Of a DNA stretch of 10,606 bases, positions 1,026 through 10,606 are shown in pieces (position 1 is the stretch's first letter; every line of letters starts with the position of its first letter). Source of the DNA: a virus. The DNA lies in UHGV virus genome UHGV-0084128; one strand, written 5' to 3'. The translations under genes were made by a program, and so were the position numbers. Under the pieces are notes generated by a model. The model had not been told where the DNA came from and did no database searches. It worked only from the letters and a program-made list of their open reading frames with translations.

Positions 1026-1226
1026 ATGCAACACGAACTACAGCCTGATTCACTGGTTGATTTGAAATTCATCATGGCTGATACTGGCTTTGGTAAAACC
1101 TTCATCTACGACCGGATTAAGTCTGGCGACCTGCCGAAAGCCAAAGTTATCCACGGACGCGCAAGATGGTTATATCGTGACCATTGTGAATTCAAAAATA
1201 AGCTCTTAAGCCGCGCCAATGGGTAA
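1026..1226 (+). CDS. xis: Excisionase / recombination directionality factor, AlpA/TorI family
   Basis: 66-aa protein MQHELQPDSLVDLKFIMADTGFGKTFIYDRIKSGDLPKAKVIHGRARWLYRDH…; winged-helix excisionase signature; SD GGAGA 8 nt upstream; sits directly upstream of attP and int. Matches my recollection of TorI of prophage KplE1. Confidence 0.85.
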   Translation: MQHELQPDSLVDLKFIMADTGFGKTFIYDRIKSGDLPKAKVIHGRARWLYRDHCEFKNKLLSRANG

Positions 1227-1242
1227 AATAGCGGGTAAAATA
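1221..1242 (+). repeat. Two direct copies of GGGTAAAATA (candidate Int arm-type or Xis binding sites), P-arm side of attP
   Basis: GGGTAAAATA-gc-GGGTAAAATA; the first copy overlaps the xis stop codon. Confidence 0.6.
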
Positions 1243-1299
1243 TTTTTCACATCTAAAAAACACCATTCCAATCAATCCCCTGCCTCGTCAAGTAGATGT

Positions 1300-1315
1300 C
1301 TGCAGGGGACACCAT
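1300..1315. other. Candidate attP core: match to the 3' terminal 15 nt of tRNA-Arg (argW), including CCA
   Basis: CTGCAGGGGACACCA(T) matches the 3' T-stem bases, acceptor 3' strand, discriminator and CCA of argW (from memory); lies between xis and int and is flanked on both sides by GGGTAAAA repeats. Confidence 0.6.
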
Positions 1316-1409
1316 TTATCAGTTCGCTACCATCCGTACCAGTCCGCAAAATCCCCTGAATATCAAGCCTTCCGTAGATTCACAGTTCGTCATGGTTCGC
1401 GTAAGATCG

Positions 1410-1439
1410 TTGACAGCCGCACTCCATGACGGGTAAAAA
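1410..1439 (+). promoter_or_regulatory. Candidate int promoter overlapping the arm-type repeats
   Basis: TTGACA (1410-1415), 18-nt spacer, TAAAAA (1434-1439); the -10 overlaps GGGTAAAA at 1431-1438, suggesting autoregulation. Weak -10, so low confidence. Confidence 0.3.
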
Positions 1440-1475
1440 GTGGATAAAATAATTTTACCCACCGGATTTTTACCC
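1431..1475. repeat. Four further copies of the GGGTAAAA motif (two direct, two inverted) at the int 5' end, P'-arm side of attP
   Basis: GGGTAAAA (1431-1438), GGATAAAA (1442-1449), TTTTACCC (1453-1460), TTTTACCC (1468-1475); the last abuts the int ATG. Confidence 0.6.
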
Positions 1476-2633
1476 ATGCTCACCGTTAAGCAGATTGAAG
1501 CAGCAAAGCCGAAAGAAAAACCATACCGCCTACTCGATGGTAATGGCCTGTACCTTTATGTCCCTGTATCCGGGAAAAAGGTATGGCAGCTTCGCTACAA
1601 GATTGACGGTAAGGAGAAAATCCTGACCGTCGGAAAATATCCGCTTATGACTTTGCAAGAGGCAAGGGATAAAGCATGGACTGCGAGGAAAGACATCTCG
1701 GTTGGCATCGATCCGGTAAAGGCGAAAAAGGCTTCGTCTAACAACAATTCATTTAGTGCGATTTACAAGGAGTGGTACGAGCACAAGAAGCAAGTCTGGT
1801 CAGTAGGCTATGCAACTGAACTTGCCAAAATGTTTGATGACGACATTTTACCCATCATCGGCGGCCTTGAAATTCAGGATATTGAGCCGATGCAACTGCT
1901 GGAAGTAATCCGCAGATTTGAAGATCGCGGCGCAATGGAGAGAGCCAACAAAGCCCGCAGAAGATGCGGCGAGGTTTTCCGTTACGCTATTGTTACTGGT
2001 AGGGCTAAATATAACCCGGCACCTGACCTTGCTGACGCCATGAAGGGATACCGCAAGAAGAACTTCCCGTTTCTTCCTGCAGACCAGATCCCGGCATTCA
2101 ACAAAGCACTGGCAACATTTTCAGGAAGTATCGTATCGCTCATTGCGACCAAAGTTTTACGCTACACAGCCCTAAGAACGAAAGAGCTTCGTTCCATGCA
2201 ATGGAAGAACGTCGATTTTGAAAACAGGATTATCACTATCGACGCCAGTGTGATGAAGGGACGCAAGATTCATGTTGTCCCGATGTCGGACCAGGTGGTT
2301 GAACTTCTCACTACGCTAAGCTCCATCACTAAACCAGTATCAGAGTTTGTTTTTGCCGGGCGCAACGATAAGAAGAAGCCAATCTGCGAGAACGCGGTAT
2401 TGCTTGTGATCAAACAAATCGGCTATGAGGGTCTGGAAAGCGGTCACGGATTCAGGCATGAATTCAGCACGATTATGAACGAGCACGAATGGCCTGCTGA
2501 TGCTATTGAAGTGCAACTGGCACATGCCAACGGCGGATCTGTGCGCGGGATTTACAACCATGCTCAGTATCTCGATAAGCGCAGAGAAATGATGCAGTGG
2601 TGGGCAGACTGGCTTGATGGGAATGTATCATAG
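1476..2633 (+). CDS. int: Tyrosine site-specific integrase, P4/IntS-like (385 aa)
   Basis: N-terminus MLTVKQIEAAKPKEKPYRLLDGNGLYLYV… typical of the P4-type integrase arm-binding domain; C-terminal catalytic motifs (…HGFRHEF…, …RGIYNHAQY…). ATG at 1476 preferred over the ORF-track GTG at 1440, giving the 385-aa length I recall for IntS. Confidence 0.95.
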   Translation: MLTVKQIEAAKPKEKPYRLLDGNGLYLYVPVSGKKVWQLRYKIDGKEKILTVGKYPLMTLQEARDKAWTARKDISVGIDPVKAKKASSNNNSFSAIYKEWYEHKKQVWSVGYATELAKMFDDDILPIIGGLEIQDIEPMQLLEVIRRFEDRGAMERANKARRRCGEVFRYAIVTGRAKYNPAPDLADAMKGYRKKNFPFLPADQIPAFNKALATFSGSIVSLIATKVLRYTALRTKELRSMQWKNVDFENRIITIDASVMKGRKIHVVPMSDQVVELLTTLSSITKPVSEFVFAGRNDKKKPICENAVLLVIKQIGYEGLESGHGFRHEFSTIMNEHEWPADAIEVQLAHANGGSVRGIYNHAQYLDKRREMMQWWADWLDGNVS

Positions 2634-2642
2634 GGAATTGGC

Positions 2643-2674
2643 GCAAAACCTTGCAAACCGATGCAAAGCTTTGC
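2643..2674. other. Three GCAAA repeats at 10-bp phasing ending in the 12-bp palindrome GCAAAGCTTTGC, in the convergent int/tailspike gap
   Basis: GCAAA at 2643, 2653 and 2663; perfect palindrome at 2663-2674 followed by a T-rich tract. Possible protein-binding site or weak convergent terminator. Confidence 0.25.
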
Positions 2675-2692
2675 GTGTGATATTTTTAACCA

Positions 2693-4825
2693 TCAAACTC
2701 CGGTTGTAATTGGAACCCAGTTATTTTTGCCTATAGCCGTGCAAAGATACTGAAATCCACTCGCCGTGTTAACATACACGGCACCAGGTTTGCCTGATAT
2801 AACCCCATTTGGGGTGCCATTACCTGAAATAAAAATGAAACCATTCTGGAAGGATACACTTTGAGTGTAATCACCTTGTCCTACCTCTCTAGCCATATCT
2901 CTAATGGCGCAGGCCCACGTACCCGCATTAGATATATTAGATATATTATCACCAGACAGCGGCGCAATAGCGATCATTGGGATTGAATTATCCCCACCAT
3001 ACCCCCGAATATTTGATATTTCTCTCTGCACAATTGTATCAGTGAGATCACGAATAAGTGGTACGGTTACTGTATCCTCACATATAAAATTTCTTATACA
3101 ATAGTCATCGACGGCAGCATTAGTTTCTATGTGGATTAAACCTTCTGATGTGGTATTGGATGCCCCACTATATCCACCAGTCCATTGAATACCGTCAAAG
3201 TTTAGATATTTAGCACCGCCAGTTATATATACATTACCGCCACCACCAATAACACGAAGATTTCTTACGTACACGCCAAAGAAACCTAGAACGTAAACTG
3301 CACGAGCGTGAAGCGACATATATTTAGCGTTATTTGCGTTATCAGACGTGCAATCCTCAATCACTGAATTACGTGCTTGTTGATGTTGCCCGGAAGGTAT
3401 TGTCTGTGAGTTTCGATGTTCAATTTGGAAACTGTAAACACAATCTTTTGCATAACAACGAATGAATCTGACACTTCTGGCGGGCATTGTAGTGGAGTGA
3501 CCTTTTTGTTGAAATCCAGTGATAACATTTTCAGCATAACAATCCATTACTGTGACGTTATAACTTCCTTCATCAATTTCAATTCCGTGTTGGTTATCAT
3601 TCCATACTTGAGATGGGTCATCGTTCCATACTCGGCATCTGTTTATAACTATATCGCTGCTGTTATGTGTGGTTATAAGGTCGTCAAGTTGCGTATTTCG
3701 TGCAGACACATCTTCAACCAGAATGTTATAGCTCCCCCCAACAGCATTGTTGTCGATATTACCATCATCAAAATAGTATCCAGCACAAATATCAATTCCG
3801 TGCTGTAGTCCACGCTGAACATACACGCGCTTGATAGAGCTATTCCTTACCGTAGATAGTAGAATGGTAGTACCCTGCGTTGCATCCATCCATGTTTCAG
3901 TTGGGTTTCTCGCCCTGTTGTTAGCATCAACACCCAGGTCTTCAATACTAATATCCGTATCGTAGTTTGTCCGGAATACCTTGTACTCGTATAGTTCATT
4001 CTGGATGCAGTTTTCAGTTATCGGCATCGAAGCAAGGGCAAGGATGGTTGTTTTCAGTTTTCCTGCACCGCGCAATCTAACGTGAGATGGTACTTTCAGT
4101 GCAGAGTTAATCCCGTAAGTACCTTCAGAAAGAATAAGCTCTTTCACCGTTGCCATTTTTGCCTCTTGCAGTGCTTTGTTCAATTTATCATGATAATCCG
4201 TTACTCCATCTGGAACAATTCCGTAATAATCAGCATACACTTTATTGCATATCCTTTTCCAACGCTTTCCACCAGGCGTGACAATTATCATTCCATCATC
4301 ATCTTCTGAAGTATTATCTGTTGAATCATACTCAAAAAAACCGCCACCGATACCAACACCATCACTATGCTCAATAACATTTATTAATTGACTTTCAATT
4401 GTTGGTTCTATTAGACGTAAATCATTAATATTTTTGCATCTCCCTATGTATTTAAAACCATCCGGTCCAATTAATCTCAACTCTAATTGGTCAGGGTTAT
4501 ATTTCAGAATGTTTGGGTAGTAAAATTGTTGCACTCCATACGCATCATAAACAGCCATAGAATGGCCTTGCACGGTTACAAACTTGGCAATCTGTCCGTT
4601 ATATACAGGGTAACCAGCAGCGTTAATGATGATTGGTTGCGATACAGGAACGTGAGAGCCGTCTTCGTTCTCTACATAAACCTGAATCCGGTTTTCAGGA
4701 TTTACAGGGTCAGTGTCAATTTTACCGATATAAATTTTGCCATTGGCTACGGCTTTAAAAGAACGCGCCATAGTGAAGAGTTGCGAAGGCATCGATACGA
4801 TCACATTGGCTGTAATGTCTGTCAT
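2693..4825 (-). CDS. 9: Tailspike protein (710 aa): P22-family head-binding domain plus a distinct receptor-binding/depolymerase domain
   Basis: First ~110 aa ([59 protein letters not shown]…) match the conserved P22/Sf6/HK620 tailspike N-terminal domain; the remainder is Gly/Asn/Ser/Thr-rich as expected for a beta-helix domain; SD GGAG upstream; 710 aa equals the HK620 tailspike length as I recall it. Confidence 0.9.
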
Positions 4826-6148: not shown

Positions 6149-6400
6149 ATGGCTAGAGATGATCCGCACTTTAACTTCCGTATGCCTATGGAAGTAAGGG
6201 AGAAATTAAAATTCAGGGCGGAGGCGAATGGGAGATCAATGAACTCCGAGTTGTTACAAATCGTCCAAGATGCTCTATCAAAACCATCGCCTGTGACTGG
6301 ATATCGCGACGATGCAGAACGACTCGCTGATGAGCAGTCAGAGCTTGTTAAGAAGATGGTGTTTGATACGCTGAAGGATTTGTACAAAAAACCCACCTGA
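6149..6400 (+). CDS. mnt: Mnt repressor (83 aa, ribbon-helix-helix)
   Basis: MARDDPHFNFRMPMEVREKLKFRAEANGRSMNSELLQIVQDALSKPSPVTGYRDDAERLADEQSELVKKMVFDTLKDLYKKPT, near-identical to P22 Mnt as I recall it; SD GGAG upstream; divergent from arc-ant. Confidence 0.95.
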   Translation: MARDDPHFNFRMPMEVREKLKFRAEANGRSMNSELLQIVQDALSKPSPVTGYRDDAERLADEQSELVKKMVFDTLKDLYKKPT

Positions 6401-6416
6401 AGGTGGGTCCTATTTA
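6386..6416. terminator. Bidirectional intrinsic terminator shared by convergent mnt and the lipoprotein gene
   Basis: AAAAAA-CCCACC-tgaa-GGTGGG-TCCTATTTATT; the hairpin contains the mnt stop codon; U-runs on both strands. Confidence 0.6.
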
Positions 6417-6836
6417 TTAGTCTTGCTTTGTTGATGGTATAAGAGATGCGTTTGCCTCTTTTGGCTTCAAGGTATACATCCCACCATTAAAAGGATCTAC
6501 AGCAAGCCAACCAATTAACCCACCAAACACAAGGTTTCCACCAATATACCAGCCATTAGCATTGGCTTTGATTGGCAGGGTAACTGGTTCGTACCCATCC
6601 TTTTCCATAGTGATCTGGTAGCTCTTTTTGCCAAAATAACTACCATCTGACTTGGCAAGAGTTACTCCTTGCGGGGTCTTACCTTGCGCAACAATCACGC
6701 CTGATTCGTCTTTTACCTTAAAGCTCGCACCGGAAGGATTGCTGTTCACTTGCACAAGCTGCGTTTCGTCACCAACAATAGTTGCGCACCCAGATAACAA
6801 TATAGCGCCAGCAACGACGCCAATAATCCTCTTCAT
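6417..6836 (-). CDS. Lipoprotein with a PEGA-like domain and a C-terminal Gly-rich hydrophobic segment (139 aa precursor)
   Basis: Signal peptide MKRIIGVVAGAILLSGC with lipobox LSGC; PEGA-like motifs (NPSGASF…GKTP…DGYEP); C-terminal WYIGGNLVFGGLIGWLAVDPFNGG. Start at the second ATG (6836) because it yields a canonical lipoprotein signal. Confidence 0.7.
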   Translation of the reverse strand: MKRIIGVVAGAILLSGCATIVGDETQLVQVNSNPSGASFKVKDESGVIVAQGKTPQGVTLAKSDGSYFGKKSYQITMEKDGYEPVTLPIKANANGWYIGGNLVFGGLIGWLAVDPFNGGMYTLKPKEANASLIPSTKQD

Positions 6837-6953
6837 ATCAATTTCCATATTTAAAAAACCGGAAACATCCTAATGACAAAACATTCAAATGTGAAGTAGG
6901 CAAAAGATGTTTACTTTTTTCATGGTATCCTGCTCAAAACTAAGGAGGTTGGC

Positions 6954-7343
6954 GTGAAGCAATTTCTTACTGCTATGTTCTTATTCATATCTTTTGGGGC
7001 TACAGCAGAGTGCTGGGTCGTTGGAGATATGCGCGGAATAAGCTATTCAGAACGAAATAATTTCCATCCGGAAGAAGATGGTTTTAGTGGAACATTCATC
7101 ATTAAGACAAACGGTGAAGATGCCAGCATCACATATTCTGGGACAGATGCGGGCGGCATGGCTTACAAAGCATTGTCTAAAAACTCCATCATAGGAATCG
7201 GCGCGAATGGCGAAACTCAACGCGTTATCGACTCATGGGTAATACATCCTACTGGAACAGTTTTAATGTCAAAAACCATTTCCGGTTATGGAAATATGGA
7301 TTCAACCAAAGCTTTTGTTGGAAAAGTAAAAAGAAAATGTTAG
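6954..7343 (+). CDS. Secreted or periplasmic protein of unknown function (129 aa precursor)
   Basis: GTG start with strong SD AGGAGG (6943-6948, 5-nt spacing); signal peptide MKQFLTAMFLFISFGATA with A-x-A cleavage site; mature protein has Cys at both ends; convergent with gene 16 and divergent from the lipoprotein gene. Confidence 0.65.
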   Translation: MKQFLTAMFLFISFGATAECWVVGDMRGISYSERNNFHPEEDGFSGTFIIKTNGEDASITYSGTDAGGMAYKALSKNSIIGIGANGETQRVIDSWVIHPTGTVLMSKTISGYGNMDSTKAFVGKVKRKC

Positions 7344-7367: not shown

Positions 7368-9209
7368 TTACTGCTGTGTTGCCTCAGTAGCAAACAGCGG
7401 TCTGATGGCATTCGCAGCGTTATTTATCGCTCTTTCATAGGCTGGTGTTCCTGCTTTGGTGTTTGCCAAACGAAGAAGCATATTCCTTGCTGCTTTGGAC
7501 TCATACAAGCGCATCATTGCACCAAAACCAGCCTCAAGCCCCATTGATACGCCAAGGGTCGCAGTTGCGCCAATCGTCCTTATCCTGTTGGCTTGCGATT
7601 GCCCCGTCTGAGTTACTACATTTGCGGTGTCTGACCTTGCTGTTTGCTGTAGAACTTCATGAAGAGCATCAAGCTCTTTCATGTGCTTTCCAGAAAAAAT
7701 AGTGTTGTAAATTTCACCGCCTGACTGAGATTTCAGCTTATTAACTTCAGTGATGAACTTGGCTGGAGAGTCCCCGGCCTTTTCCGCTATTTTGCTGACG
7801 TAAGCTGCACGCATAGCATCTTTCCCCTTATCATCCAGTGCGCTCCAGATTCGTTTCACGTCAGATGGTTTTCTGCTTAATACAACGGTATTTATAAGTT
7901 CAGGACTGGCTTCACTGCTTGCCTTGTTGAGCTTGTTGGCAATGTTTTTATTAAGCACCTTATTATAAACGTTTGCATAATCGGAATTTGCTTTAAGGTA
8001 TTTTGCTGCGTCTGATGCACCGAGGTTTTTAGCAACTGCGTTACGAAGGTCTTTTGACATTGCATTCTCTACCATATTGGTAGCTGCTTTTGCCTGGTTG
8101 GGGAAGACCATAGCATCTCCCTGAACATTAGATCTAAATGCTGTTCTGTGCTGACGCAAGAGATCAAACGTAACATCCAAATCAGTTGCAGGGTTTGCTA
8201 ATTCTTCACGTAGGTTACGCAAGGATGTAAGCAGGCTTTGATTGGCAGACGTCCCAAGCCGTTCCTGTCTTGCGATCGCTGTATTCAGAGCATTCATGGT
8301 ATTTGTGGTATCAACTGCGGCATTACCCATTTTATTGGTGACGTCATTGATAACAGCGCCAGCGGCATCCTTCCGCCCCCTTAACGTGGTGGTCAGAGAT
8401 TTCACCACATCATCAGGGTTGTACTCACCAAAACGGTCAAAATAATTGCTTACCAGCTTACTCCGCGTTGCATATTGCTCTGCTCGCTTTGAGCCCGTCC
8501 CGAGCAAAGCCCCCTCGGCATCCTGAGTAAGGCCGCGAGTGAAAGCATTTTTCGGCGGGATAACATCAGATGTCATTGGTGTCACGCCCATCGATTCTGA
8601 TGTGGCAATTTTCTTCGCCACTTCTGGCGCAATATCACCTTTTATAGCCGTTATTCCACGCCCTATTCCCTTTGCTGCTGCGGAAAGAACACCCTGAGCG
8701 GCAAGGTTAACTCCGGCATTTTTAGCTGCATTTTGTGCGAAATCGCCTTTCTGATTTGCGGCCTCTGCCAGCGATCCAATAGCCATGCTTCCTGCCGTTC
8801 CAACTCCTGTAACTAAATACCCACCAATTGTTTCACCGGCTTGTGCGTATGGGTCTGTCGGTTTGTCTACTGGACGATAAACATCATCCAAAACTTTTGG
8901 CCCACCAAGCCCCTGACTGATTGCATTAATCAGACTTGCGCCACCCTGCAATACGTCAAATGGTATGTTTACCAGACCACGACCAGCCTGTTCTGCAATT
9001 TGCCCTGCACTTTGACCACCAGTGAGCCAATCGCCAGCTTGTTGCATCAATGATGGTTCTTCACGTACTGGTGCATTATTGGCCTGATTAACTGTTTGTT
9101 GCTGAACAACCTGACCAGCAAAATAATCATCAATGGCGGCTCCAATATCTTCCGTGCTCGTACCATCAGGGAAGGTAAATGTCTTACCGTTTGCAGTTAC
9201 TTTCATCAT
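7368..9209 (-). CDS. 16: DNA-ejection (injection) protein gp16 (613 aa)
   Basis: N-terminus [23 protein letters not shown]… as I recall for P22 gp16; Ala/Gly/Asn-rich; start codon overlaps the stop of the upstream gene. Confidence 0.8.
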
Positions 9210-10606
9210 TCCACCGTAAATTGAATGCCTGATTTTGAGGTATATGATCCAACCTGATTCCGTGGTTCTCCTGAAGGTGTCGAATCTTGTGCTGGCGCTG
9301 CGTCAGTATTCAATGACATATACCGCTTAACGGCACTCCCCAATGATTCACCTTTTTTAACATCCAACCCCAATATCTGACCGCCATTACGCGATTGTCC
9401 AGGATTGCCATTCGCGCTCATCCACTCAGCTTTAAACTCATTAAACTGCGCGTTTCGTCGCTCAAGGTTTGCCATTGCATCAAGCCATCTTGCGACCGTC
9501 TCAGGGTTATCCATGTCAGTTGGCGCACCCTGCCGAACGATCTCAACGTCTTTATCCGTTGCTGGGCCGGGAGGCAGGAATTTAAGAACCTGACTGTTAA
9601 CAAGGGCATTTTGGCGGATGCGCAAATCACGCAATGTCGTATCGCTTCCGGTAAGTTTTGCGAACATGTTCTGTGCGTTACCGAACAAACCTGTCGTTGG
9701 TTTTTCTGCTCTGAACTGTTGAGCAAGCGCACTCATAGAATTGGCTGAGTTTGATGATGCTGTGGCATTGTTTACAGCCGTCTCGATACCTTTTTCCATG
9801 TTTACTGACAGCTTAGGTGCTTCACTAATCAACTGCTGAGCCTTTTCCTGCGCTTGCTGCATCTTAAACCCGAACTCTTGCTGATCCAGAGCCAAGCGTT
9901 GTGCTGCGATATTGTGCCCAGTCATTGCTGACTGATAGGAAAGGTTTTGCCCTCTCGCCTGAAGTGCTTCACCAGCCTTATTGCTGCGGATTGTCTCTGC
10001 CAGCCTGCCTCGGTCAATTTCACGACCAGCCATCTTATCCTGAACAGCAAACGCCTTTTCTGGTCCAAGCGCACCGAGAGACATAGTAGTCAGCATGTGT
10101 GATAGCTGCTCTGGATTCTGGATACCTGTCTGAATCATCCAGTCAGCATTAGCACCAACGCGATTTAACCTGTCCTTGTTGTCAGTAATGAATTTACTGT
10201 AGGCTTCCGGTCCCTGAGAAAGAGCGACGTTAGCCCTCATGGCTAAATCGCCCATATCGTTGCGTTGCTGATCATTAAGACCAGAAAACGCCTGTTGTGC
10301 CTGTGCAACAAACGCTGGATTTTCCTGGGCAAACTTAAATAGTCCCGACGGATCACCAGAAGCCCATGCATCAGCGTGAACCTTATTGAACGCACTAATC
10401 GCTTTCTGTTGCTGTTCCTGATTGTAAATATCAGCAACTCCAGCCAGACCATGTAACGCGGTCAGACCAACGTTATTTGCACCTGAGCGAGCCAACTCAT
10501 TGTTTTCGCGGATCAGACCAAGCGTTGCGTTAATGTCGCTTGCCTTTGGCGCATTCTCATTTTGCGTACCGATGCCAGCCAGAAAACCACCAGAATTAAT
10601 ACCCTG
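9206..10606 (-). CDS. 20: DNA-ejection protein gp20; 5' end lies beyond the window
   Basis: Reading frame is open from the window edge (…[45 protein letters not shown]…) to TGA at 9206-9208; Ala/Gln-rich; sits immediately upstream of gene 16 as in P22. The ORF-track TTG start at 10495 is not the true start. Confidence 0.75.

What the first reader, a model, noticed from the sequence alone, without database searches (positions are those of the whole stretch)
6417..6836. Phage-encoded lipoprotein combining a PEGA-like domain with a Gly-rich hydrophobic C-terminus
The mature protein starts at the lipobox Cys and contains a stretch (VQVNSNPSGASFKVKDESGVIVAQGKTPQGVTLAKSDGSYFGKKSYQITMEKDGYEPVTLPI) that fits the PEGA-domain pattern, followed by WYIGGNLVFGGLIGWLAVDPFNGGMYTL, which could be a membrane-inserting or oligomerising segment. 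I do not recognise this combination from the characterised prophage lipoproteins (Bor, Cor, Llp). It could be a new class of phage-encoded surface or periplasmic effector.
Basis: partly seen in the sequence, partly recalled or inferred. Interest (0 to 1): 0.6.

Follow-up and report, generated by a model that had tools for sequence, protein, structure and literature searches.

The report
Prophage-expressed envelope lipoprotein, function unknown
This is a real gene in a P22-like E. coli phage for a small lipid-anchored envelope protein that a near-identical prophage copy expresses in the lysogen; it belongs to a very large bacterial family that nobody has characterised, so it is a good but ordinary candidate for a phage gene that changes its host's surface.

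Summary
Window 6417-6836 (minus strand) encodes a 139-aa protein with a signal peptide, the lipobox L-S-G-C, a beta-sandwich and a Gly-rich hydrophobic segment.

The domain combination is not a phage invention. It is the signature of a huge uncharacterised proteobacterial lipoprotein family (5,740 50%-identity clusters). The Gly-rich motif is its most conserved part.

The gene is already in the databases as epsilon34 gp15 and PHROG 6823, both of unknown function.

It sits in the variable segment between gene 16 and mnt of P22-like phages, which holds sieA in P22. Close relatives sit in lambdoid tail clusters, including the HK97 gp15 slot.

Published RNA-seq of the 98.6%-identical copy in the E. 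coli LF82 prophage Gally shows transcription independent of the late operon, roughly 60-100-fold above it in DMEM and macrophages.

Most likely it is a lysogenic-conversion lipoprotein acting at the outer membrane. Superinfection exclusion is slightly favoured over envelope stress protection; neither was tested. Interest is moderate.

The parts
6417..6836 (-). Coding sequence of the 139-aa prolipoprotein (stop codon 6417-6419)
   Evidence: ORF and translation. It is 97.9-98.6% identical to epsilon34 gp15, Gally GALLYPH_14 and vB_EcoP-720R6. PHROG 6823, E=6.8e-86. The start at 6836 is supported by the Gally alignment and by the RefSeq model WP_000821222.1, 420 nt.
6786..6836 (-). Signal peptide (residues 1-16, MKRIIGVVAGAILLSG) plus the lipidated Cys17 (6786-6788); lipobox L-S-G-C, +2 residue Ala
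   Evidence: Sequence. Cys, Ala+2 and Ile+4 are invariant in 35 relatives and at least 90% conserved in 73 diverse ones. Outer-membrane sorting is inferred from the E. coli +2 rule, not tested.
6558..6764 (-). PEGA-like / transthyretin-like beta-sandwich (residues 25-93), with the P-S-G-A, G-x-T-P and G-Y motifs
6471..6557 (-). Family-signature Gly-rich hydrophobic motif (residues 94-122, NGWYIGGNLVFGGLIGWLAVDPFNGGMYT; 8 Gly), predicted as one helix (95-112) plus a loop
   Evidence: Most conserved segment: 3.34 bits per column against 2.11 for the sandwich. N101, G109, D114, P115, G118 and M120 are invariant. Helix 95-112 has pLDDT about 69-81. Summed Hessa scale is +4.1 kcal/mol and Kyte-Doolittle mean 1.28, so it is not a classical stop-transfer helix. 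No Pfam model covers it. A partial NCBIfam LEPBI_I2678 match covers residues 72-137 in 143-aa numbering.
6420..6470 (-). C-terminal tail (residues 123-139); together with Y121-T122 it forms predicted strands 121-124 and 127-131
   Evidence: AlphaFold with the 73-sequence alignment gives pLDDT 88-96 for these strands. That they pack back onto the sandwich is my inference from confidence and chain connectivity, because no coordinates were available. Non-enterobacterial homologues carry a further roughly 30-aa extension that is absent here.
6867..6895 (-). Sigma-70-like promoter TTCACA-17 nt-TAGGAT, about 30 nt upstream of the start; weak GGAAA ribosome-binding box at 6842-6846
   Evidence: Consensus scan, 9 of 12 matches. 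Both hexamers and the spacing are conserved in epsilon34 and, as TTCACG-17-TAAGAT, in Gally, where the rest of the upstream region differs. Function is inferred; it is supported indirectly by independent transcription of the Gally copy.
6386..6408 (-). Intrinsic terminator directly after the stop codon (minus strand: ACCCACC-TTCA-GGTGGGT then TTTTT), shared back-to-back with the convergent mnt gene
   Evidence: Hairpin found by the scan, reported on the + strand. The minus-strand T-run was read from the sequence. The equivalent site is annotated as a rho-independent terminator after gene 15 in epsilon34.

Best explanation
The gene is a moron, that is, a lysogenic-conversion gene expressed from the prophage.

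Shown, or strongly predicted:
- It encodes a 139-aa prolipoprotein of a very large, uncharacterised proteobacterial family.
- The mature 123-aa protein has almost no tether after the lipid-modified Cys. The conserved sequence C-A-T-I-V-G leads straight into the fold.
- It has a PEGA-like beta-sandwich, one highly conserved Gly-rich hydrophobic helix, and two C-terminal strands that probably return to the sandwich.
- It is its own transcription unit, with a conserved sigma-70-like promoter and an intrinsic terminator.
- In a 98.6%-identical prophage copy it is transcribed independently of the late operon.

Inferred:
- There the lipid anchor and the Gly-rich helix hold the sandwich flat on, and partly in, the membrane, probably as an oligomer or bound to an outer-membrane protein.

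Committed guess at the pay-off: it interferes with entry of superinfecting phages at the outer-membrane or periplasmic step, by masking a receptor or obstructing the ejection or tape-measure conduit. This would be analogous to Cor, Llp and the mEp Lpp lipoproteins. I put about 0.35-0.4 on this functional step (this is the confidence given for the explanation as a whole). The anatomy and the moron status I put above 0.9.
For: Anatomy:
- Lipobox and invariant Cys.
- Beta-sandwich.
- Conserved helix.

Independent unit:
- Promoter-like site conserved in Gally despite different flanks.
- Terminator.

Expression (PMC9928086, S1/S4 tables). Values are log2(5+fpkm):
- GALLYPH_14 in stationary LB: 6.2 and 4.8.
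- In the bacteria-only B1/B6 samples (DMEM according to the S1 caption): 9.8-10.5.
- In macrophages: 9.4-11.0, with log2FC 3.84 and q=1.4e-31.
- The adjacent late gene GALLYPH_12 stays at 3.6-4.2 throughout.

Moron behaviour:
- Present in only 3 distinct phages (4 records) among 50,697 phage records and in 126 of 5,426 complete E. coli genomes, always chromosomal.
- It lies in the variable gene 16-mnt segment, the 'ant moron' that holds sieA in P22.
- Relatives at 68-80% identity sit in lambdoid tail clusters. P0061 lies between the tail chaperone gene T and the tape-measure gene. That is the slot of the HK97 gp15 exclusion moron (PMC3594210).
- Other copies lie between gpI and gpJ, between K and I, or next to the tape-measure gene.
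- The P22-like and lambdoid copies form one clade.

Precedent: lipoproteins encoded inside structural clusters of mEpimmI coliphages were shown to exclude phages (PMC11893012).
Against: - No exclusion phenotype is known for any member.
- There is no PADLOC hit.
- There is no homology to Cor, Llp, SieA, HK97 gp15 or, at tblastn level, to any lipoprotein in the phage collection, which may or may not hold the mEp genomes.
- Many members are chromosomal genes in conserved non-phage contexts. The phage copies keep every invariant residue and show no accelerated divergence. This suggests they do the ancestral envelope job rather than a phage-specific one.
- Expression is low in stationary LB, 3.3-fold over background and below the authors' moron cut-off. 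It is high in DMEM and macrophages, a pattern the authors also note for Bor.
- Position in a moron hot spot is weak evidence, because lom and bor also sit in late regions.
- In P22 the gene that abuts gene 16 in sieA's orientation corresponds to the neighbouring 129-aa ORF, not to this one.
Confidence: 0.38

Rival explanations
1. Envelope-stabilising or host-adaptation factor. The lipoprotein does for E. coli what its chromosomal relatives do in other proteobacteria. With its lipid anchor and Gly-rich helix it organises or stabilises the outer membrane or its proteins under stress, such as low Mg2+, antimicrobial peptides, serum or the macrophage vacuole. It would work like SlyB/YfgH, with a Bor-like benefit to the lysogen, and phage exclusion would be at most a side effect.
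For: - Strong expression in DMEM and inside macrophages against low expression in stationary LB.
- The same study notes DMEM induction of the prophage lipoprotein Bor.
- The family is chromosomal and syntenic in Erwinia/Pantoea, Photorhabdus (next to murJ), Pasteurellaceae and Lonsdalea.
- Phage copies retain all invariant residues.
- E. coli has no core copy, so the prophage adds a new envelope component.
- There is precedent for outer-membrane lipoproteins with membrane-embedded Gly-rich helices that protect the membrane: SlyB and YfgH (preprint 10.64898/2025.12.22.696046).
Against: - No Pfam glycine-zipper family matches.
- Only one helix is predicted, not a hairpin, and the domain order is reversed relative to SlyB.
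- No phenotype data exist.
- The LB-versus-DMEM difference could simply be growth phase.
Confidence: 0.3
2. Different topology. The Gly-rich segment is a true transmembrane helix that stops transfer, so the protein stays in the inner membrane with the sandwich in the periplasm and the last roughly 20 residues in the cytoplasm. It would then act on the inner-membrane step of DNA entry, as SieA and HK97 gp15 do.
For: - The helix is 18 residues long and flanked by Trp/Tyr.
- SieA and gp15, which occupy equivalent genomic slots, are inner-membrane proteins.
- Long-form relatives have a conserved charged tail that could be cytoplasmic.
Against: - The summed Hessa scale is +4.1 kcal/mol, against +0.1 for the signal-peptide core, and the Kyte-Doolittle mean is 1.28.
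- The helix contains Asn and five Gly.
- The residues after it are predicted with high confidence as strands (pLDDT 88-96), most simply read as packing on the sandwich and so on the same side of the membrane.
- There is no positive-inside bias after the helix (sequence).
Confidence: 0.1
3. Passenger with no selected role in E. coli: a mobile bacterial gene cassette that happens to be tolerated in moron hot spots.
For: - Low prevalence, about 2.4% of complete E. coli genomes.
- Found in non-conserved chromosomal spots, including an insert splitting an ABC-transporter operon in L014.
- The authors of the LF82 study did not score it as a moron in LB.
Against: - Sequence conservation is strong across phage copies, with intact ORFs in 123 of 126 E. 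coli genomes at 90-100% nucleotide identity.
- It has been captured independently at several different positions in different phage types.
- The promoter core is conserved.
- Transcription is high.
Confidence: 0.12
4. Lytic-cycle function: an outer-membrane spanin-like lysis component or a virion or assembly protein.
For: It is a lipoprotein on the late-operon strand, between ejection-protein and tailspike genes.
Against: - It is absent from P22 and from almost all sequenced relatives, so it is dispensable.
- It is transcribed when late genes are silent.
- It has its own terminator.
- It is not overlapped by or paired with an i-spanin gene.
- Chromosomal homologues lie outside phages.
Confidence: 0.03

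Closest known systems
Salmonella phage epsilon34 gene 15 product / PHROG 6823 / RefSeq WP_000821222.1 / Gally GALLYPH_14
   Same: The same protein at 97.9-98.6% identity, at the same position next to mnt.
   Different: Nothing material. All are annotated as hypothetical or 'peptidase associated/transthyretin-like domain-containing protein', and no function has been assigned (PMC2629481).
Pfam PEGA domain (PF08308), transthyretin-like / carboxypeptidase-regulatory / CnaB beta-sandwiches
   Same: The motif pattern P-x-G-A ... G-x-T-P ... G-Y, and the predicted fold.
   Different: It scores below the Pfam cut-off. It has a roughly 10-residue insertion (SDGSYFGKKS). It is fused to a conserved Gly-rich helix that no Pfam model describes. 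PEGA itself has no established function; only 18 papers in the library mention it.
SlyB and YfgH, outer-membrane lipoproteins with membrane-embedded glycine-zipper helices
   Same: A small lipoprotein made of a Gly-rich hydrophobic helix plus a small beta domain; stress-linked expression; a plausible oligomeric, membrane-embedded mode of action (what I say about SlyB's structure is from my own knowledge).
Phage exclusion lipoproteins Cor (phi80/N15/HK022), Llp (T5), Lpp021/Lpp010 (mEpimmI phages)
   Same: A small lipoprotein encoded in or beside the virion-structure genes of a temperate phage and expressed in the lysogen. This is the functional class I favour.
   Different: No homology beyond the signal peptide. 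It is about twice the size of the Cor PHROG profile (78 positions), with a different fold. Exclusion has not been tested. Unlike them, it has thousands of chromosomal relatives.
P22 SieA and HK97 gp15 (moron-encoded exclusion proteins)
   Same: They occupy the same variable genomic slots: the gene 16-mnt segment, and the slot between tail chaperone and tape-measure gene. Like gp15, which derives from YebO, this protein appears to derive from a chromosomal envelope-protein family.
   Different: SieA and gp15 are integral inner-membrane proteins without a lipobox. They are unrelated in sequence. In P22, sieA has the orientation and position of the neighbouring 129-aa ORF rather than of this gene.
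Lambda Bor
   Same: A prophage-expressed outer-membrane lipoprotein, induced in DMEM in the same LF82 data set.
   Different: No Pfam Lambda_Bor hit; different size and architecture.

Membership tests
Bacterial lipoprotein (Lgt/Lsp substrate) | N-terminal signal peptide with a basic n-region and a hydrophobic core | tested here: met
   MKR + IIGVVAGAILL. The signal-peptide core is the only 19-residue window with a summed Hessa value near 0.
Bacterial lipoprotein (Lgt/Lsp substrate) | Lipobox [LVI][ASTVI][GAS]C with a conserved Cys | tested here: met
   L-S-G-C at residues 14-17. The Cys is invariant in 35 of 35 relatives and at least 90% conserved in 73.
Bacterial lipoprotein (Lgt/Lsp substrate) | Actual acylation and signal peptidase II cleavage; outer-membrane localisation | not testable with these tools
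   Only the +2 rule can be read: Ala at +2, conserved, which predicts Lol export in E. coli.
Pfam PEGA (PF08308) | Score at or above the gathering threshold (20.8 bits) | tested here: not met
   17.5-17.6 bits, E about 0.004.
Pfam PEGA (PF08308) | Homologues of the query recognised by the model | tested here: inconclusive
   25 of 73 diverse relatives match at E<=0.01, best 5e-9. This supports a divergent branch of the PEGA/transthyretin-like clan rather than clean membership.
Pfam PEGA (PF08308) | Transthyretin-like beta-sandwich fold | tested here: met
Glycine-zipper outer-membrane lipoproteins (SlyB/YfgH; Pfam Rick_17kDa_Anti, Gly-zipper_Omp/OmpA/YMGG) | Match to a glycine-zipper profile | tested here: not met
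   No such family at E<=1 for the query or at E<=0.01 in any of 73 relatives.
Glycine-zipper outer-membrane lipoproteins (SlyB/YfgH; Pfam Rick_17kDa_Anti, Gly-zipper_Omp/OmpA/YMGG) | Two-helix membrane hairpin with repeated GxxxG, N-terminal to the beta domain | tested here: not met
   A single helix, 95-112, C-terminal to the sandwich. There is only one clean GxxxG, G105-G109 in 139-aa numbering.
Moron (autonomous prophage-expressed accessory gene) | Own promoter and terminator | tested here: met
   Promoter-like site conserved across different flanks. Intrinsic terminator. These are sequence predictions only.
Moron (autonomous prophage-expressed accessory gene) | Transcribed from the repressed prophage independently of lytic genes | tested here: met
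   Published RNA-seq for the 98.6%-identical Gally copy: 9.4-11.0 against 3.6-4.2 log2 units for the adjacent late gene (PMC9928086 S1/S4). In stationary LB it is only 3.3-fold over background, below the authors' 5-fold cut-off. Not measured for this exact phage.
Moron (autonomous prophage-expressed accessory gene) | Present or absent among otherwise similar phages ('more DNA') | tested here: met
   P22 has orf59a and sieA in this segment instead. Only epsilon34, Gally and vB_EcoP-720R6 carry the gene among 50,697 phage records.
Moron (autonomous prophage-expressed accessory gene) | Base composition different from its neighbours | tested here: not met
   GC is 0.41-0.45 across the gene and its flanks.
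Superinfection-exclusion proteins (Cor, Llp, SieA, HK97 gp15) | Homology to a characterised exclusion protein | tested here: not met
   The Cor PHROG match covers the signal peptide only. No PADLOC hit. No other phage-collection hits.
Superinfection-exclusion proteins (Cor, Llp, SieA, HK97 gp15) | Blocks infection by incoming phage when expressed | not testable with these tools
   No published test was found.

The most novel reading that the evidence does not exclude
The family, defined by a tetherless lipid anchor, a PEGA-like sandwich and an invariant Gly-rich helix (N-G-W-Y..G-N..F-G-G-L-I-G..V-D-P..G.M), would be a previously unrecognised class of membrane-embedded outer-membrane lipoproteins, distinct from SlyB/YfgH. 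Temperate podophages and siphophages of Enterobacterales would have captured it repeatedly because it remodels the outer membrane in a way that both broadly blocks incoming phages and protects the lysogen in host environments such as the macrophage vacuole of adherent-invasive E. coli.
Probability: 0.15. Interest if true: 0.7.

Novelty: new member of a known kind. Interest (0 to 1): 0.4.

Why it matters
Four reasons, if a function is found:
1. It would annotate thousands of 'hypothetical lipoprotein' genes across Proteobacteria.
2. It would give the conserved C-terminal module, which currently has no Pfam model, a meaning.
3. It would explain why unrelated temperate phages keep picking the gene up.
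4. It would show what the most highly transcribed right-arm gene of the LF82 prophage Gally contributes during macrophage infection. Gally was reported as frequent in E. coli associated with Crohn's disease and as 'devoid of morons'.

A new exclusion lipoprotein would also matter for phage-therapy host-range prediction in E. coli and Salmonella.

As it stands, this is a sound, testable candidate rather than a surprise.

Tried and rejected
- **Direct sequence search of PDB chains, with the single sequence and with the profile.** Only chance-level or generic sandwich matches: RNA polymerase beta' at E 0.16 and a collagen adhesin at E 0.02.
- **Foldseek against the PDB with the better model.** No match at E<=1e-3.
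- **BFVD viral structures.** One unnamed 123-aa viral relative (A0A6G5YEA5, E=3.7e-11); otherwise generic.
- **afdb50 library.** Not available.
- **PADLOC.** No hit for this protein, its neighbour or three relatives.
- **NCBIfam.** Only a partial, far-sub-threshold match to the uncharacterised LEPBI_I2678 family, plus a signal-peptide match.
- **JGI's 'YceK' label on some relatives.** Rejected as a probable signal-peptide or lipobox artefact. This is my judgement; no YceK match appeared in the Pfam or NCBIfam scans.
- **C-terminal sorting signals** (GlyGly-CTERM, PEP-CTERM, sortase-like). Rejected because the motif is internal and is followed by conserved structured residues, 46 more in long forms.
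- **Spanin or virion role.** Rejected; see the rival explanations.
- **Conserved operon partner across taxa.** None found. Neighbours differ between lineages, so context gives no functional clue.
- **The search for related loci with the diverse alignment.** Failed for lack of a conserved word; the closer alignment worked.
- **Supplement search for the RNA-seq legend.** Timed out. The meaning of B1/B6 as DMEM rests on the S1 caption.
- **Literature searches.** No paper on the function of this protein or family was found.
Full report
**What is in the sequence**

The window is the right arm of a P22-like (Lederbergvirus) phage of E. coli. In order it carries:
- an AlpA-like xis and a P4-type integrase (1026-2633, +);
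- the tailspike (2693-4825, -);
- ant, arc (-) and mnt (6149-6400, +);
- the gene under study (6417-6836, -);
- a divergent 129-aa secreted ORF (6954-7343, +);
- the ejection-protein genes 16 and 20 (7368-10495, -).

RefSeq and other sources use the 139-aa form. In phage Gally the upstream ATG does not exist, while the 6836 ATG and a GGAAA box are conserved.

The product starts MKRIIGVVAGAILLSG-C17-ATIVGD. This is a textbook signal peptide and lipobox with Ala at +2. Both peptide stretches quoted in the finding are present.

**Is it real?**

Yes, on four counts:
- The word-indexed search found 602 homologues.
- An exhaustive profile search of 1.84 billion cluster representatives found 5,740 at E<=1e-3 and 2,115 at E<=1e-10.
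- The lipid-acceptor Cys, the following A-T-I, and a string of residues in the C-terminal motif are invariant or nearly so.
- A 98.6%-identical copy is transcribed.

**Domain anatomy**

*The sandwich.*
- Pfam PEGA matches residues 28-93 at 17.5 bits (E=0.004), just under the 20.8-bit gathering score.
- Scanning 73 diverse relatives one by one, 25 hit PEGA at E<=0.01, the best at 5e-9. Nothing else recurs.
- AlphaFold2 with the 73-sequence alignment gives mean pLDDT 87.5 and pTM 0.77, with a six-strand sandwich at residues 25-93 (pLDDT 90-98).
- PGAP now names the protein 'peptidase associated/transthyretin-like domain-containing protein'.
- 'PEGA-like' is therefore correct at fold and superfamily level, but the sequence is not a clean Pfam member.

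*The Gly-rich segment.*
- Residues 94-122 (NGWYIGGNLVFGGLIGWLAVDPFNGGMYT) are the best conserved part of the protein: 3.34 bits per column against 2.11 for the sandwich.
- N101, G109, D114, P115, G118 and M120 are invariant.
- No Pfam model covers the segment. NCBIfam shows only a partial match to the uncharacterised Leptospira LEPBI_I2678 family.
- The model makes it one 18-residue helix (95-112, pLDDT about 70-80), then a loop and two confident strands (121-124 and 127-131, pLDDT 88-96).
- I could not inspect coordinates. That these strands return to the sandwich is my inference.
- On crude scales the helix is not a stop-transfer segment. The summed Hessa value is +4.1 kcal/mol, against +0.1 for the signal-peptide core, and the Kyte-Doolittle mean is 1.28.
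- No solved structure resembles the whole architecture.

**The family**

The 'combination' is not a phage fusion. It is the constant signature of the family.
- Members outside Enterobacterales, in Halomonadaceae, Oceanospirillum, Nitrosomonas, Gallionellaceae, Mariprofundus, Pseudomonas and Acinetobacter, have a fixed mature length of about 151 aa, with an extra tail '..ISIVLLxDVPxxLRxxM..'.
- Enterobacterial and phage forms are 121-124 aa mature.

I called ORFs in 80 loci from one genome per species, clustered the neighbours and annotated representatives with Pfam. No partner gene is shared across lineages, so this is a stand-alone envelope lipoprotein gene. The contexts found were:
- In Erwinia/Pantoea the gene sits in a conserved chromosomal block, in the order nrdE, nrdI and (in part of the loci) nrdH; DUF883; an unannotated ORF; amino-acid permease; homocysteine methyltransferase; the gene; GNAT acetyltransferase; Tsx. 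This block was found in 14 loci.
- In Photorhabdus it lies between rimJ-like and murJ.
- In Pasteurellaceae it follows accBC, panF and an outer-membrane beta-barrel gene.
- In Lonsdalea and Chromohalobacter it lies next to an EAL-domain gene.

**Association with phages**

Among 50,697 phage records only epsilon34, Gally and vB_EcoP-720R6 carry the gene. All three are P22-like, with the gene beside mnt.

In P22 the same gene 16-mnt segment holds orf59a and sieA. Strictly, sieA has the position and orientation of the neighbouring 129-aa ORF, not of this gene.

Relatives occur in lambdoid siphophage prophages at several different places:
- between the tail chaperone gene T and the tape-measure gene in E. 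coli (P0061, 68% identity);
- directly upstream of the tape-measure gene in Proteus;
- between gpI and gpJ, between K and I, or next to the tape-measure gene in Pseudescherichia, Phytobacter and others.

The chaperone/tape-measure slot is exactly where the founding moron, HK97 gene 15, lies. HK97 gp15 is an exclusion protein that itself derives from a chromosomal family, YebO (PMC3594210).

In a neighbour-joining tree the P22-like copy groups with the lambdoid tail-cluster copies and with chromosomal copies from Rosenbergiella, Tatumella and an Erwiniaceae isolate. These last lie in unrelated, non-phage contexts. The cassette has therefore moved between phage types and chromosomes.

In E. coli it is accessory. 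The allele is in 126 of 5,426 complete genomes, and the P0061 type in 5 more, always on the chromosome.

**Transcription**

Upstream lies a sigma-70-like site, TTCACA-17-TAGGAT (6895-6867). Its hexamers and spacing are kept in Gally as TTCACG-17-TAAGAT, although the surrounding sequence is different.

Directly after the stop codon is a hairpin with a T-run on the minus strand, shared with convergent mnt and annotated as a terminator in epsilon34. GC content does not differ from the flanks.

Published RNA-seq of E. coli LF82 (PMC9928086, tables S1/S4) gives the following for GALLYPH_14 (LF82_139), in log2(5+fpkm):

| Condition | Values |
|---|---|
| Stationary LB | 6.22 / 4.79 |
| Bacteria-only samples B1, B6 (DMEM according to the S1 caption) | 9.82 / 10.19 and 10.49 / 10.24 |
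| Macrophages, 1 h | 11.03 / 11.0 |
| Macrophages, 6 h | 9.39 / 9.5 |

The log2 fold change for 6-h macrophages against LB is 3.84, with q=1.4e-31. The adjacent late gene (gp16 homologue) stays at 3.6-4.2 in every condition.

The authors called Gally 'devoid of morons' because in LB the gene reached only 3.3-fold over background, below their 5-fold cut-off. Their own tables show that it is the most highly transcribed gene of the prophage's right arm in the other conditions, and that it is uncoupled from the late operon.

The Gally promoter context is only partly the same as in the window, so the transfer is an inference. Epsilon34 shares the window's upstream region almost exactly.

**How it probably works**

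Shown or strongly predicted:
- it is a lipoprotein;
- it has essentially no tether, because the conserved C-A-T-I-V-G leads straight into the first strand;
- it has a PEGA-like sandwich, a conserved hydrophobic Gly-rich helix and a structured C-terminus;
- it is an autonomous transcription unit, expressed from the prophage.

Inferred:
- the helix dips into the membrane or mediates oligomerisation or binding to an outer-membrane protein, so that the sandwich lies on the membrane surface.

For the biological pay-off I slightly favour exclusion of superinfecting phages at the outer-membrane or periplasmic step (about 0.35-0.4). The reasons:
- Most characterised non-lysis phage lipoproteins do this. 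Examples are Cor and Llp, and the Lpp021 and Lpp010 lipoproteins of mEpimmI phages, which are encoded inside the structural cluster (PMC11893012).
- The gene recurs in slots used by SieA and HK97 gp15.

The main rival (about 0.3) is an envelope-stabilising or host-adaptation role, like SlyB/YfgH or Bor. It is favoured by three observations:
- the many chromosomal, syntenic relatives;
- the lack of divergence in the phage copies;
- the DMEM and macrophage expression pattern.

Less likely are an inner-membrane bitopic topology (0.1), a neutral passenger (0.12), or a lysis or virion role (0.03).

**Comparison with what is known, and verdict**

The protein is already catalogued (epsilon34 gp15, PHROG 6823, WP_000821222.1) but has never been characterised. 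I found no paper on its function.
- It is not a member of the Cor, Llp or Bor families, nor of the glycine-zipper lipoproteins, because their defining profiles were tested and not met.
- It is a divergent relative of PEGA.
- It meets three of the four moron criteria I could test. Base composition is the exception.

I rate it a new, uncharacterised member of a known kind, the prophage moron lipoprotein, of moderate interest.

Noticed in passing
window 6954-7343 (+): A 129-aa ORF with an N-terminal signal peptide (PHROG 2651, no Pfam or NCBIfam hit) is transcribed divergently from the lipoprotein gene and abuts gene 16. This is the position and orientation that sieA has in P22. The slot is variable: epsilon34 has an hkcB-like gene, and Gally has a different 171-aa gene (GALLYPH_13) that is co-induced in DMEM and macrophages, from about 6.1 to 10.3 log2 units.
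   Followed up: partly
window 1026-2692: An AlpA-like xis (1026-1226) and a P4-type integrase (1440-2633, +) converge on the tailspike gene (2693-4825, -). The window is therefore in phage or attP form rather than an integrated prophage end. Near-identical right arms in E. coli chromosomes end next to torT, the torS-torT site discussed for Gally.
   Followed up: no
L014:4819-7783 (Erwiniaceae bacterium CAU 1747): The 80%-identical chromosomal copy lies in a roughly 3-kb stretch of small ORFs. This stretch separates an OppC-like permease gene from a second permease gene and a family-5 solute-binding-protein gene, as if a mobile cassette had split an opp/dpp-like operon.
   Followed up: partly
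L027, L032, L036 (Photorhabdus), just upstream of the 186-aa homologue: An 'ORF' cluster made of the repeated peptide HCRTGSLE looks like a translated CRISPR-type repeat array next to the lipoprotein gene. The Photorhabdus homologues also carry a long repetitive DPNK tail.
   Followed up: no
L003-L007 (E. coli ED1a-type lambdoid prophage): The tail gene cluster holds several inserted accessory genes besides the lipoprotein. There is a porin gene between gpM and gpL. In all but L005 there is also an Arc-like repressor and a Bro-N/P22 antirepressor gene after gpL, with a ClpP-like protease gene as well in L003, L004 and L007.
   Followed up: no
PMC9928086 tables S1/S4 versus its text: The paper states that prophage Gally carries no morons. 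Its own RNA-seq tables show GALLYPH_13 and GALLYPH_14 far above the late genes in DMEM and macrophages. The conclusion depended on using stationary LB only, with a 5-fold cut-off.
   Followed up: yes
family-wide: Mature length is strikingly fixed. It is 151 aa in most non-enterobacterial members, which have a conserved C-terminal 'hVLLxDVPxxLRxxM' tail, and 121-124 aa in most enterobacterial and phage members, which lack it. Photorhabdus (169-177 aa) and the Pasteurellaceae (118-143 aa) are exceptions. The tail may be a separate functional module.
   Followed up: partly
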